Shown here piece by piece: positions 5,932 through 12,949 of a stretch of 64,000 bases of DNA. The translations under genes and the position numbers were made by a program. How positions within the stretch are numbered: position 1 is the stretch's first letter; the number at the start of each line of letters is the position of its first letter. Origin of the DNA: the human T2T-CHM13v2.0 reference genome, Homo sapiens; assembly GCA_009914755.4 (NCBI GenBank), contig CP086569.2:10144001-10208000 (forward strand), read 5' to 3'. The notes beneath the pieces were generated by a model. It was not told where the DNA came from and ran no database searches. It worked only from the letters and a program-made list of their open reading frames with translations.

Positions 5932-7359
5932 GTTATGACCCCGTTCTTGTCATCAGGACAGCCCAATACATATCTTGAATGAGATGGCTTATCAAGGCAT
6001 CCCAGAAACCACTGGGGGTATTTTTTTCTCTATCCTGCAATTTTTCTCCTGGAGTAGAAGATAGTCCACAAAATACAGTTACCTCTAATACAGGCTCTGA
6101 CAATTTGATCTTTCATGGATTCTCAGAACAAATAAGGAGGAGAAGATTAAGCACTTCCCCAGTGTACAGAAAGCACCGGAACCCCCACTGAATGTTTTTT
6201 TTTTTTTTTGGTTAGAATAATAGAGATTTTTTCATGCCAATAGACTATTACACTTTCAAAGTGGTCACCTCTCCTCAGCTAGCAAATTCCCAATGGTACA
6301 ATCCCGGATTTCTCCTGCTGCCAAACCACGGGATCATCCTGGTACAGCTGAATGCTGGAGTACCCCAGAAATGGAAACTTCTCAATATTTCTTTTTTTTT
6401 CTGGACTCCAGAACTCCCAAACAGATATTAAACCTATAGCCTGGAATTTTCCTGAGAAAAATACAATGGATTATAAATATTAAGCTGTGACTGATTCAGC
6501 AAGATTCTGGATTAATACATTAGCTAGTACAATTAGGCTTCATACTCTACCATTAGTTAATGCTGGTACATCCTGGTTTCTCTTTTCAAGTGGGATAGGT
6601 GAATCTCAAGTTCCTGTTAAGATGGATACTGGTCAGTCTCAAGTTCAATTTATTAATGTTCCATCTCATGGACAACTTGTAGCTAAACCTTGGCTAGAAA
6701 TTACTCCTGAAGTTGAAACTTAGAAACAATTTTTAGCTTATAAAACAGGAACAGTGATGCAGATTAAATCCAGTGAAGAGAGTACTAGAAACCAAAAGTA
6801 TCATGTAGCTCATAGAGTTAACCCTGGTGCAAAACCAGCAACTTACAACTAGATTCCACCAGTACTTTTCATAGTTAATAAAATTGAAATATGGACTCAT
6901 TGATCACTCAATGAAGATGGATCTCAGCATCCTACAGTAACCCATACCTTTGAACCATGGTGTCAGCTAGTGTTGAATATATTTGTATCCCCAAGAAATT
7001 ATAGAAAGGACAGATGGATACTAGATTCTCACTGAACCTGAGTCAACTCAGTTCTGGATTTCTTCTATACTGCATACTCTTCATGTGCAAAGTTAAAAGG
7101 TGACAATATTAGGGCTTGGACACAACAGAAAACCAGTATAATGAGGCCCTCAAATCAAATAGATAGATTGAGTCCATTGAGTAAACATGTGGCTATTATT
7201 ACTGAAACCCCTGATGCAGACATGAATCTTAATACATCCTATTATGAATGCAATTGAGCCCTCAATTCACTCCAAAGTTGAGATGATCAAACCCTGAAAG
7301 CAGCCTAAAACAGCCATAGTCCTAACATGGATCTAGTCAGAAACTCAATCAGGAAGACT

Positions 7360-10300
7360 CTTGACTCACCTGAAAGCTGATACAATTAAACAACAGTTAC
7401 AAATTGAAATAGAAAGAATGAGACCTTGGATTCAGCATAAATTTAAAATACTGAGGCCCAGAACCCAGACTCAAGAATGGAAAGAAAAACACTGGACCCA
7501 ACCAGAAGCAGATCCAGTTAGGTACTGGTCCCAAACTGGGATGGAAACAGTGGTACCCAGGCCCCAAACTGGAGGTGATAGATCCAGACCCTGAAATCAC
7601 ACTGAAGCTGATATCATCAAACTTTTGTTTTGATCTCAAGCAGAGACAGTCACACAGTGGAGAGAACCAGTAACTCTGACAAATCAGCATTGGATACAGT
7701 CTGAAACTGAAATATTGAGGTTTTGGAACCAACCTGTGACTGATAAGTTAAGAGACTGGATACAACATGAAGCTTATGCATTTAGACTCTGGGGCAAGTT
7801 TGAAAGTGTTAAAGTTAGATCGTGGACCCAAGCTGAAGATGACACTTTGAGACCCTGGAATCAGAAAGACATTGGTGTAATTGACCCCTGGGTACAAAGT
7901 AAAGCTACCGTACTAACACAATGGATGCAGGGAGAGTCTCAAGAATTAAATCCCTGGACACAATCTAAAACTCACACAGTCCCACTGTGGACCCAGACTG
8001 AAACTCCAATAGTAAACTCTTGGACCAAGATGTTAGCAGATACAGTCACAACATGGACAAAGGCTGAATTTCAAAAATTAACATCCTGAAGACAGTCTGA
8101 AACTGATCCAATCATACTGTGAACTATTGCCAAATCTCCAGCAGTGAATCTCTGGACACATTCTGTATCTGATAAAGTCACATGTTGGAACCAAGAAGAA
8201 TTTCCAGCCTTATTTCCCTTGACATATTCGTATAGCTAAGACAGTCACACCATGGATCCAGGATAGATTTACAACAGTGAATCTCTGGGCAAAAACTATA
8301 GCTGAAACTGTCATACCATTGACCCTTGATGAAATGCACCAATAAATCCATGGAAAGATTGCAGCCTGAATATCTAGAAGGAAATAACTTACTCCCATCT
8401 GAATTTAATCCAGTCTCATTGTGGACCATGGCTTATTTGCCAGCAGTAAATTACTGGATACAGTTTGATACTGAGGCAATAACACTGTGAACCCAGATTG
8501 AGGCTCCAGCAATACATTCCTGGAAACAGTAGGTAACTGATATAATCACACTAGGGACCAATGATGAATCACTAGTGATGAATTCATGAATATATTCTCC
8601 TATATCTGATACAGTCATAATAATGTGTATCTAGGCTGAATCGCTATTATTACATCGTTGGAAACAGTCTGAAACTGATATACTCACAACATGGATTCTG
8701 GCTGAAACTCTAGGAGTAAGTCCCTGGGCACATGATATATTCCTATCATGGACCCACCCTGAACATCCACCAGTATCTTGGACTCAAACATGGATTCTGG
8801 GTGAAACTCCAGCAATGAATCCCTGGAGAGAGGCTACAGCTGATATGGTCCTACCAAGGAATTAGGCTGAACTTAAAGAGGGAAATGCATGGACAAAGTC
8901 TGAAATGTATACAGTCACAGAGTGGATCCTGGATAATTCTCTAGCAGTAAATTCATGGACACAGACAACAGTTGATGCAGACAAGCTGTGGACCAAGCCT
9001 GAATTTTCAGCCGTAAATCCCTGGGCAGTCTCTGGGTGATAGTACTATACTGTGGATTCAGGATGACTCTCCAGCAATGAATCCTTTTACACAGTATCTA
9101 TCTTATAGAATCAAACCATGGGACCAAGATGAATCTTCAGCAGTAAAGCATTTGACACAGGCAATAGCTTATACAATCAAACTCTGGAACCAAGTCAAAT
9201 TACCTGCCATAAATCTCTGGAAACAATATGAAACTGATACCTTCATACAGTAGACCAAGACTGAATCTCCAAAAGTAAATGACTGGACACAGCCTATACC
9301 TGCTGCAGTTATACCACAGAACCAAGATGAACCTGTAGGAGTAAATCCCTCCACAAAGCTTGAAACAGAAATTGTCTTACTGTGGACCCAGGCTCATTCT
9401 AAAATCAATAATCTCTGTACATATACTTATTGATAGAGTGAAACCATTGGCTAAGAATGTTTATGTAGTAGTAAATCTATGGAGACAGTCTAAAACTGAG
9501 AAAGTCACATCATGGACCCAGGATCTGTTGCCAGCAATAAGTCACTTAGCATTGGCTGTAACTCATATAGACACACTGCAGTACACGGATGTATTTCTAA
9601 TAATAATTCTCAGGAGAGAGGCTCTAGCTGATATATTCATAACATGGACACAGACAAAATCACCAGCAATCAATTTCTGGTTACAACCTGTACCTGATAC
9701 AGTCACACTATGGACCTAAACAAAATATCTATAAGTAAACACTTGGAATGAGGCTGAATTTCCAGCTGTAAATCCCATGATGCAGTCTAAGTCTCTAATT
9801 GTAAATATCTGGACAGAGTCTGAATGTTCAGTCCCAAGTCCTCTGTTACAGGATGAGACTGACACAGTCATACCATGGACACAGACTGAATTTTTGGCAG
9901 TAAATCCATGGACCAAGTCTGTTGCTGATACATTCACAGTGTGTACACAGCCTGTAACTCCATCATTAATCTTCTTTTCATAAAGTTTACATGGTACACT
10001 TAAAGCAGGGCATCAAACTGAATGTCTACCAGTAAATATCTGGACAGAGGCTGTAGCTTCCAAAGTTATACCCTGGACCCAGGCTGAATTTCCAGCAATA
10101 AATCCCTGGACACAGCCTGTTTTTTATACAGCTACAACTTGGGCACAGGCTGTATCTGCAACAGTAAAGGCCTGGGCACAGCCTTCATCTAATACAATCA
10201 GATTATGGTCCCAAACTGAATCTGCAGCATTAATTACATGGATCCTGCCTGTATCTGAGACATACATAGGATTGATCCAATTTGAATCTTCAGCAGTAAA

Positions 10301-12690: not shown

Positions 12691-12949
12691 TCTCCTCCTG
12701 AAATTGAGCCTAATGGAGAAACACTATTAACGAGTCATTTTGGCTCCTTGTCTAAACATGTGCTCTTTTTGCCAGTAAAAACTGTTTCTTACCCAGATCA
12801 GTATTTTATCTTTGTTAACTGAGATAACTGCCACCGAAAGCCAGGATAAAATCAATTCTCTCCAGTTGAGCCAGCGTACAAGTACTTGGTTTCCTGGAAG
12901 AGTGTTTACCAGCACTACGGCAGGAAATTAAAAATTATCCAGATAAAAG

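What the first reader, a model, noticed from the sequence alone, without database searches (positions are those of the whole stretch)
6480..12720. A ~5-6 kb tandem array of 33-bp units that keeps an 11-codon frame (x-x-W-T-Q-x-E-x-x-x-V)
About 160 consecutive 33-bp units (consensus about ccctggacccagtctgaaactgatacagtcaca) fill 7360-12690, with degenerate units back to about 6480. Read on the plus strand, the unit is exactly 11 codons. The tgg (W) and cag (Q) positions stay in register for dozens of units (RSWTQAEDDTL / RPWNQKDIGVI / DPWVQSKATVL / NPWTQSKTHTV / PLWTQTETPIV …), and units alternate between two subtypes (AEFPAVN-like and PVADTVT-like), which points to a 66-bp higher-order unit. 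Divergence is almost entirely by substitution, since the frame is kept over kilobases. Yet stop codons occur every 60-190 codons, and ORFs are open on both strands. This does not look like a generic non-coding minisatellite: the period is a multiple of three with a fixed aromatic position. It also does not look like a live gene. I cannot match it to any satellite family I know (alpha, beta, gamma, HSATI-III, MSR1, SST1, CER, DYZ-type) or to a known repeat-protein gene. A pseudogenised giant repeat exon, or a lineage-specific satellite derived from one, are both possible. It lies 8 kb beyond the 3' end of the A(-) TSPY pseudogene.
Basis: seen in the sequence. Interest (0 to 1): 0.8.

Follow-up and report, generated by a model that had tools for sequence, protein, structure and literature searches.

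The report
Decayed repeat exon of PRSSLY pseudogene
The 33-bp array is the decayed remnant of the giant, repeat-filled coding exon of PRSSLY, a Y-linked testis serine-protease-like gene that is intact in many mammals but already published as a dead pseudogene in humans, apes and monkeys; the array is real but ordinary.

Summary
Positions 7328-12687 contain 163 head-to-tail units of 33 bp (11 codons, W-x-Q-x-E), and the central part has a 66-bp higher-order period. The array is not a satellite. It is the relic of the giant "upstream ORF" exon of PRSSLY (protease, serine-like, Y-linked; Hughes et al. 2022, PMC9178871). The window is colinear, exon by exon, with the intact mouse-lemur PRSSLY cDNA, which has a 3405-codon open frame. 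The giant exon lies at 5776-13455, and seven trypsin-like-domain exons follow at 14.0-19.2 kb. In the window the array carries 25 in-frame stops, and 22 units have lengths that shift the frame. The protease exons carry stops and a frameshift, and one exon is missing, so this copy is a pseudogene, as published for human, apes, rhesus and marmoset. Units are only 49% alike within the window, against 74-90% identity to orthologous positions in other primates. The array is therefore ancient and static, not homogenised. Substitutions against lemur are equal at all three codon positions in the array but show a third-position excess in the protease exons. Contigs from human biopsy metagenomes are 99.8-99.9% identical, so the window is human. 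Only the explicit 11/22-residue repeat description seems unpublished. Interest is low.

The parts
5694..7327 (+). 5' part of the giant PRSSLY exon relic. It holds the C-terminal remnant of a first trypsin-like domain, followed by weakly periodic, degenerate units.
   Evidence: tblastn with mouse-lemur PRSSLY aa 1-486 gives 47-58% identity, with in-frame stops and frame changes. blastn matches lemur nt 192-1923. Walrus aa 106-159 matches 6868-7023. The lag-33 autocorrelation is 0.31-0.37 against a median of 0.26.
5851..5925 (+). 27-bp tandem triplication (2.8 copies, 97% match) inserted in the trypsin-like remnant. It is specific to this copy.
   Evidence: Tandem Repeats Finder. It appears as an LVSDTSVVG x3 insertion relative to lemur.
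7328..7900 (+). Array zone 1: plain 33-bp units (W-x-Q-x-E-x-x-x-[VIL]-R-x type).
   Evidence: Unit table. Lag 33 = 0.49, about equal to lag 66. The same zone occurs in lemur at nt 1600-2770.
7900..10900 (+). Array zone 2: 66-bp higher-order units that alternate ...AEFPAVN and ...PVADTVT types.
   Evidence: Lag 66 = 0.495, above lag 33 = 0.42. N/T alternation in the unit map. Colinear with lemur nt 2773-5940. The same dimers occur in the open walrus and antelope ORFs.
10900..12687 (+). Array zone 3: plain 33-bp units, R-type again.
   Evidence: Unit table. Periodicity. Colinear with beaver protein aa 10-650 and with lemur nt 5940-7900.
12688..13455 (+). Non-repeat tail of the giant exon: a Ser/Pro/Cys-rich linker that runs up to the ...FWLFKTAVISHETT motif.
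   Evidence: tblastn with beaver (52% identity) and lemur (56% identity), including two stops. The periodicity ends here.
14001..14189 (+). Protease-like domain 1, exon a. It carries an in-frame stop (EFS*IVSV).
   Evidence: Pfam Trypsin scores 45.7 bits for the joined domain.
14674..14932 (+). Protease-like domain 1, exon b.
15077..15232 (+). Protease-like domain 1, exon c. The next exon (lemur aa 3038-3130) was not found in the window.
16106..16264 (+). Protease-like domain 2, exon a. It carries an in-frame stop (AMPW*AGII), and the Cys after the catalytic His is changed (AAHY).
   Evidence: Pfam Trypsin scores 47.6 bits for the joined domain.
16618..16873 (+). Protease-like domain 2, exon b. 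It has a frameshift between 16736 and 16739.
18103..18238 (+). Protease-like domain 2, exon c.
18816..19209 (+). Last exon: end of domain 2, hydrophobic C-terminus and 3'UTR homology. It has two in-frame stops.

Best explanation
The array is the remains of the single giant coding exon (the "upstream ORF") of PRSSLY. PRSSLY is an ancestral sex-chromosome gene that eutherians kept on the Y. It encodes a very large testis-specific protein: a long tract of 11-residue W-x-Q-x-E repeats followed by two trypsin-like domains. Shown here: the whole gene is present in the window on the plus strand (5.7-19.2 kb), colinear with the intact mouse-lemur cDNA, and it is disabled throughout. Inferred: the repeats arose long ago by tandem duplication of an 11-codon unit, and in the central zone of a 22-codon dimer, inside an exon. 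This happened before the boreoeutherian radiation, because the same units are seen in lemur, beaver, walrus, antelope, sea lion and bat. Unit turnover then largely stopped, since the units are now only about 49% alike. In lineages with a live gene, selection keeps the frame open but hardly constrains the residues. After the gene was inactivated in the simian lineage, the exon drifted neutrally and collected stops and small indels. The array today most likely does nothing. At most it is part of a weakly transcribed pseudogene RNA, as Hughes et al. report. The minus-strand ORFs are a by-product of composition: the reverse complement of the consensus unit has no stop in any frame.
For: A stitched translation of the array finds one protein cluster among 5.8 billion. 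It is a set of beaver proteins with an N-terminal repeat tract and trypsin domains, some named "serine protease 52-like". tblastn with these proteins is colinear from the array through seven downstream exons. Hughes et al. 2022 describe PRSSLY as having a massive single exon with no identifiable domain and Ka/Ks near 1. They report transcribed pseudogenes in human, chimpanzee, gorilla, orangutan, rhesus and marmoset. Their human and rhesus pseudogene models align to window 7884-14181 at 82-90% identity. Their mouse-lemur cDNA has a 3405-codon open frame and aligns colinearly to window 5776-19209 at 74% overall. The lemur ORF has the same three zones of periodicity as the window. The window has 25 stops and 22 frame-shifting units in the array, with ORFs of at most 187 aa. 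The protease exons have stops, a frameshift and a missing exon. Mismatches against lemur by codon position are 0.255/0.247/0.235 in the giant exon (p = 0.31) and 0.156/0.101/0.272 in the protease exons (p = 5e-9). A profile built only from window units retrieves PRSSLY-type proteins from 1.84 billion representatives. These include a cluster with DAZ89702.1, "Y-linked serine-like protease [Rousettus aegyptiacus]". The joined protease exons pass the Pfam Trypsin threshold.
Against: The window is human by contig identity, yet it is only 87-88% identical to the published human model. It is therefore probably a different, diverged copy from the one modelled, and that copy may not have been described individually. 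Y linkage was not shown directly. It rests on four neighbouring TSPY-like copies, which were recognised with a TSPY1 sequence recalled from memory. Transcription could not be tested. One protease exon was not found.
Confidence: 0.95

Rival explanations
1. The array is a lineage-specific satellite or minisatellite that started from an exon. It now evolves as tandem DNA by unequal crossing-over and homogenisation, and its array length varies.
For: The units are head to tail with a constant 33/66-bp period. Substitution rates are equal at the three codon positions. About 1.7 kb of the array (9266-10967) has no counterpart in the human and rhesus models.
Against: Units are only 49% identical to one another (maximum 85%). 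Orthologous positions are 74% identical to lemur and 82-90% identical to the human and rhesus models, and the order of blocks is conserved. The array length in the window (giant exon 7.7 kb) is close to that of lemur (8.5 kb). The 1.7 kb missing from the models is present in lemur (nt 4964-5940), so it is a deletion elsewhere and not an expansion here.
Confidence: 0.02
2. The locus still encodes protein. This would be either a shortened PRSSLY isoform or small ORFs in the array that are translated in testis.
For: Hughes et al. report low-level transcription of the human locus. ORFs of 108-187 aa exist. An exact 136-aa ORF recurs in 20 human-derived contigs, but that only shows the DNA is human.
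Against: There are 25 stops and 22 frame-shifting units in the array. The protease domains have stops, a frameshift and a missing exon. There is no codon-position signal in the array. The longest ORF is on the minus strand and is explained by base composition. The paper notes "no ORF in any transcript" for human.
Confidence: 0.02
3. The array works as RNA or DNA rather than protein. It could be a testis long non-coding RNA whose repeats bind a factor, or a structural element of the TSPY-rich Y region.
For: Transcription is reported in the literature. The locus is retained over tens of millions of years without deletion.
Against: No Rfam family matches in 5-20 kb. Divergence from the human and rhesus copies (10-18%) is of the size expected for unconstrained Y sequence; this is an inference. 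The other copies have lost 1.7 kb of the array without obvious consequence. Retention is also expected by chance on a non-recombining chromosome.
Confidence: 0.04

Closest known systems
PRSSLY (protease, serine-like, Y-linked), e.g. the mouse-lemur cDNA BK059441 (Hughes et al. 2022, BMC Biol 20:133)
   Same: The exon order and content are the same: a giant exon with a weakly periodic 5' part, three repeat zones and a linker tail, followed by two trypsin-like domains in small exons. The whole is colinear at 74% nucleotide identity.
   Different: The lemur gene has one open frame of 3405 codons. The window copy is broken by dozens of stops and indels and lacks one protease exon.
Published human, chimpanzee and rhesus PRSSLY pseudogene models (Additional file 9 of the same paper)
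   Same: They belong to the same pseudogene family and are disabled in the same way. They are 82-90% identical over 7884-14181.
   Different: The window is human but only 87-88% identical to the human model. It also keeps about 1.7 kb of the central repeat zone that the models lack. It looks like a second, older-diverged copy.
PRSS55 and other testis serine proteases of the PRSS family
   Same: They share the trypsin-fold domains. According to the paper, PRSS55 is the closest paralogue.
   Different: None of the searches run here (Pfam, PRSSLY-unit profile) linked the 11-residue repeat tract to any non-PRSSLY protease; PRSS55 itself was not examined. No Pfam family covers the tract.
Giant repeat exons of mucins (e.g. 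MUC16) and coding VNTRs
   Same: Both have a very long single exon built from tandem in-frame units, with weak constraint on individual residues.
   Different: Mucin repeats are Ser/Thr/Pro-rich and often polymorphic in copy number. These units are Trp/Gln/Glu-anchored 11-mers, strongly diverged and positionally stable. The comparison with mucins rests on general knowledge and was not tested here.
11/22-residue amphipathic-helix repeats (apolipoproteins, alpha-synuclein, LEA proteins)
   Same: They share the 11-residue period, with a 22-residue higher-order unit.
   Different: Here a proline occurs nearly every unit, often twice. AlphaFold2 gave no confident structure (pLDDT 35). This is a numerical resemblance only.

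Membership tests
PRSSLY gene family | A giant upstream exon homologous and colinear with that of an intact orthologue | tested here: met
   Lemur nt 192-8656 aligns to window 5776-13455 in five colinear blocks at 67-79% identity. The non-repeat 5' part and the tail align as protein.
PRSSLY gene family | Trypsin-like serine protease domains encoded by small exons downstream on the same strand | tested here: met
   Seven exons lie at 14.0-19.2 kb. The two joined conceptual domains score 45.7 and 47.6 bits against Pfam Trypsin, whose cut-off is 20.6.
PRSSLY gene family | Location on the Y chromosome in eutherians | tested here: inconclusive
   Four TSPY-like copies lie in the same window (the TSPY1 query was recalled from memory). 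No tool here can map the window to a chromosome.
PRSSLY gene family | Long intact open reading frame (needed for a live member) | tested here: not met
   The array has 25 stops and 22 frame-shifting units, and the longest ORF is 187 aa. The protease exons have stops, a frameshift and a missing exon. The locus is therefore a pseudogene member.
PRSSLY gene family | Testis-specific transcription | not testable with these tools
   Known only from the literature: low-level transcription of the human, chimpanzee and rhesus pseudogenes.
Satellite / minisatellite (VNTR) DNA | Head-to-tail units of constant period | tested here: met
   Autocorrelation peaks at 33, 66, 99 and 132, and 163 units with 136 of exactly 33 bp.
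Satellite / minisatellite (VNTR) DNA | Homogenised units: more alike within a genome than to orthologous units in other species | tested here: not met
   Mean unit-to-unit identity is 49%, against 74-90% at orthologous positions.
Satellite / minisatellite (VNTR) DNA | Array-length polymorphism among individuals | not testable with these tools
   Four human-derived contigs covering 8467-14887 match with at most 10 gap positions. This is too little to judge.
Any curated protein repeat or domain family (Pfam) | Significant match of the repeat tract to a family model | tested here: not met
   Window translations give no family at or above the gathering score. The five best PRSSLY-type proteins found with the repeat profile have no Pfam family.
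11/22-mer amphipathic-helix repeat proteins | Confidently predicted helical repeat structure | tested here: inconclusive
   AlphaFold2 on 110 residues (window 10041-10370) gave a mean pLDDT of 35 and pTM of 0.17. The alignment given to it was shallow and staggered.

The most novel reading that the evidence does not exclude
The giant PRSSLY exon, described in the literature only as a huge ORF with no identifiable domain, is in fact an ancient and positionally stable array of about 160-190 W-x-Q-x-E 11-residue units. It has a fixed three-zone plan (11-mer, 22-mer, 11-mer) shared by lemur and the human relic. The same unit types are visible in beaver, walrus, antelope, sea lion and bat. The frame is kept open in live genes although all three codon positions change at the same rate, which points to selection on length or openness rather than on sequence. 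Also, the human genome seems to hold at least two copies of the pseudogene that diverged long ago (about 12%), perhaps co-duplicated with TSPY.
Probability: 0.4. Interest if true: 0.3.

Novelty: already known. Interest (0 to 1): 0.13.

Why it matters
It matters little for biology. The result removes a false lead: this is neither a new satellite family nor a new giant gene. It ties the array to a published Y-linked pseudogene. Two small points may be useful to people who work on PRSSLY or on Y-chromosome annotation. First, the upstream ORF has an explicit 11/22-residue repeat grammar, absent from Pfam, that can be used to find and annotate PRSSLY relics. A profile made from the dead human copy alone recovered orthologues from carnivores, bats and a tamarin. 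Second, the human genome appears to hold more than one diverged copy, which could confuse read mapping and pseudogene models.

Tried and rejected
- **Tandem Repeats Finder.** At default and at the lowest score it found no array, because the units are below its identity range. I replaced it with autocorrelation and a wrap-around profile alignment.
- **Pfam on translated stretches of the array.** It gave nothing meaningful.
- **Literature search on 33-bp repeat, TSPY and Y.** It gave only general Y-chromosome papers. The lead came from the protein search instead.
- **New World monkey origin.** I first thought the window came from a New World monkey, because it is about equally distant from the human and rhesus models. 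I rejected this after near-identical contigs turned up in human biopsy metagenomes and tamarin fragments proved much more different.
- **Third-position test within the unit alignment.** It showed no codon pattern: information content was 0.57, 0.60 and 0.67 bits at positions 1, 2 and 3. The pattern reflects unit subtypes, not selection.
- **Structure prediction of ten units.** It gave no confident fold. The pseudo-alignment of overlapping stretches was staggered by MAFFT and therefore weak.
- **Walrus N-terminal protease-like segment (aa 1-105).** It found no counterpart upstream in the window.
- **Rfam.** It found nothing in 5-20 kb.
- **Protein search with the TSPY exon-1-like ORF.** It returned only unnamed ORFs from contaminant contigs, so it did not name the neighbour.
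Full report

Tandem Repeats Finder lists nothing between 6480 and 12720, even at its lowest score. Its description says arrays under about 70% unit identity usually fall below threshold. Direct measures show the repeat plainly. In 7360-12690, the fraction of bases that match the base 33, 66, 99 or 132 positions away is 0.43, 0.46, 0.41 and 0.43. The median for other lags is 0.26, and neither flank has such peaks.

I aligned 6400-13000 to a cyclic 33-column profile and refined it four times. This gives 163 units between 7328 and 12687.
- 136 units are exactly 33 bp, and 119 have no indel at all.
- The consensus is TGGACCCAGGCTGAATCTGAAACAGTAAAACCC (W-T-Q-A-E-S-E-T-V-K-P).
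- Trp is at position 1 in 102 units, Gln at position 3 in 79 and Glu at position 5 in 70.

The 66-bp higher-order period is real but confined to 7900-10900, where lag 66 (0.495) exceeds lag 33 (0.42). The zones 7330-7900 and 10900-12690 are plain 33-bp arrays. The unit frame holds 25 stop codons. Twenty-two units have lengths that are not multiples of three, so the coding frame hops among all three genomic frames.

ORFs on both strands exist but are short, at most 146 aa on plus and 187 aa on minus. The reverse complement of the consensus unit has no stop in any of its three frames. On the plus strand, only the Trp frame is open. The minus-strand ORFs are therefore a side effect of composition, read directly from the consensus.

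**What is it?**

A stitched translation of the array, searched against 5.8 billion protein clusters, hit one cluster (E = 3e-70). It is a set of predicted beaver proteins with an N-terminal tract of the same repeats followed by trypsin domains, and some members are named "serine protease 52-like". Compared back to the window, these proteins are colinear from 10972 through the end of the array and a non-repeat tail (to 13427). They continue into a series of small exons at 14.0-19.1 kb that are 62-86% identical.

That architecture led me to PRSSLY. Hughes et al. 2022 (PMC9178871) describe PRSSLY as follows.
- It is a Y-linked, testis-specific gene.
- Most of its very long ORF lies in one massive exon with "no identifiable domains".
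- Ka/Ks is near 1 in that exon and much lower in the protease domain.
- It is a transcribed pseudogene in human, chimpanzee, gorilla, orangutan, rhesus and marmoset.

Their supplementary sequences allowed direct tests. The human and rhesus pseudogene models align to window 7884-14181 at 82-90% identity. The mouse-lemur cDNA (BK059441) has a single open frame of 3405 codons. It aligns to the window in one colinear chain, 74% identical overall:
- The giant exon lies at 5776-13455.
- Further exons lie at 14008-14189, 14674-14932, 15101-15232, 16122-16264, 16618-16869, 18103-18232 and 18816-19209.

The non-repeat 5' part of the giant exon (from about 5694) and its tail also align as protein, so the match is not an effect of repeat self-similarity. 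The lemur ORF has the same three zones of periodicity in the same order. The antelope and walrus cDNAs are visibly built from the same 22-residue dimers (PWTQAESPAVN / PWTQSIADVDTL). The part of the walrus cDNA that I translated is open for 840 codons.

A profile made only from 17 stop-free stretches of the window found 55 proteins among 1.84 billion representatives.
- The best hits are a sea-lion protein, unnamed ORFs of 2357 and 3058 residues, and tamarin fragments.
- A bat cluster contains DAZ89702.1, "Y-linked serine-like protease [Rousettus aegyptiacus]".
- The five top hits have no Pfam family.
- The weakest hits are unrelated proteins, for example BNR-repeat proteins.

**State of the locus in the window**

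Besides the damage in the array, the protease part is broken.
- There are in-frame stops in the exons at 14001-14177, 16106-16264 and 18817-19065.
- There is a frameshift between 16736 and 16739.
- No counterpart was found for the exon encoding lemur residues 3038-3130.

Even so, the two joined conceptual domains pass the Pfam Trypsin threshold. The locus is a pseudogene.

**How it evolved**

Units within the window are on average 49% identical to one another (maximum 85%; adjacent units 47%, next-but-one 55%). Orthologous positions are 74% identical to lemur and 82-90% identical to the other simian copies. This is the opposite of concerted evolution. The duplications that built the array are older than primates, and the units have since diverged in place.

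Mismatches between window and lemur by codon position differ between the two parts of the gene.
- In the giant exon they are 0.255, 0.247 and 0.235 (chi-square p = 0.31).
- In the protease exons they are 0.156, 0.101 and 0.272 (p = 5e-9).

The repeat tract therefore changed without amino-acid-level constraint even while the gene was alive on the lemur side. This agrees with the published Ka/Ks near 1. The protease part was under purifying selection for much of the time. My reading involves three steps.
1. In-frame tandem duplication of an 11-codon unit, and of a 22-codon dimer in the central zone, built the array. This step is inferred.
2. In live genes, selection kept the frame open rather than preserving the sequence. 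This step is inferred from the lemur ORF and the codon-position data.
3. After inactivation in simians, the exon decayed neutrally. The decay is shown here; the timing is taken from the paper's species survey.

An AlphaFold2 run on ten units gave no confident structure (pLDDT 35). The alignment was poor, so this says little. No Rfam family matches the region.

**Where the window comes from**

An exact 136-residue ORF of the array (11467-11874) is present on 20 contigs of public assemblies. Four of the five fetched contigs are 99.76-99.95% identical to the window over up to 6.4 kb. One comes from project PRJEB21933, shotgun data from intestinal biopsies of children with Crohn's disease. The window is therefore human.

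It holds four TSPY-like copies, at about 21.4-23.7 kb (minus), 24.3-25.3 kb (plus), 55.1-55.7 kb (plus) and 61.0-63.7 kb (minus). This fits the Y chromosome, but I could not map the window.

**An unresolved point**

The published human model is only 87-88% identical to this human window, and it lacks about 1.7 kb of the central zone (window 9266-10967). Lemur has that segment, at nt 4964-5940. Three further human-derived contigs are mosaics of blocks identical to the window and blocks 83-90% identical. The head of one of them is 97.7% identical to the published model. The simplest reading is that the human Y carries at least two old copies of the pseudogene, and that short-read assemblers joined them. 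I could not test this.

**Comparison with what is known, and verdict**

The locus meets the structural criteria for the PRSSLY family and fails the intact-ORF criterion, so it is a PRSSLY pseudogene. It does not behave like a satellite. The existence of PRSSLY pseudogenes on the human, ape and monkey Y, and the giant exon itself, are published. I did not find the 11/22-residue repeat grammar described in the PRSSLY papers I read.
- Novelty: already known.
- Interest: low.

Noticed in passing
window 14001-19209 (+): The 8 kb between the array and the TSPY copy holds the rest of the same gene. It contains seven exons of two trypsin-like domains, with in-frame stops, one frameshift and one exon missing.
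   Followed up: yes
window 5851-5925: A 27-bp unit is repeated 2.8 times at 97% identity. It inserts LVSDTSVVG x3 into the remnant of the first trypsin-like domain of the giant exon, and lemur lacks it.
   Followed up: partly
window 21.4-23.7 kb (-), 24.3-25.3 kb (+), 55.1-55.7 kb (+), 61.0-63.7 kb (-): There are four TSPY-like copies in two head-to-head arrangements, 76-86% alike. The copy at 61.0-62.6 kb is the best preserved, at 67-90% protein identity to TSPY1 as recalled from memory.
   Followed up: partly
L005, L006, L007 against window 10403-13179: Contigs are mosaics of blocks 100% identical to the window and blocks 83-90% identical; L005 and L006 come from human samples, while L007's sample origin is not stated. 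The head of L006 is 97.7% identical to the published human PRSSLY pseudogene model, which is itself only 87-88% identical to the window. This suggests a second, old copy in the human genome, or assembler chimeras of two copies.
   Followed up: partly
window 9266-10967: About 1.7 kb of the central repeat zone is present here and in mouse lemur (nt 4964-5940). The published human and rhesus models have only about 170 bp in its place.
   Followed up: partly
beaver proteins P0001, P0011-P0015 (XP_073918440, XP_073920019, XP_073920271 and others): Several near-identical PRSSLY-type gene models lie on one 146-Mb beaver contig. This hints at multiple copies in beaver, whereas the paper reports a single copy in species with good assemblies. 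The models also read through what looks like intron sequence.
   Followed up: no
window 32219-33061 and 39634-40476; also 161-873 against 32032-32744: There are long inverted repeats of 843 nt at 96% and 713 nt at 93%. They are probably copies of an interspersed element and are unrelated to the array.
   Followed up: no
window 26007-26209: A 101-bp unit is repeated twice at 93% identity, just downstream of the plus-strand TSPY-like copy.
   Followed up: no
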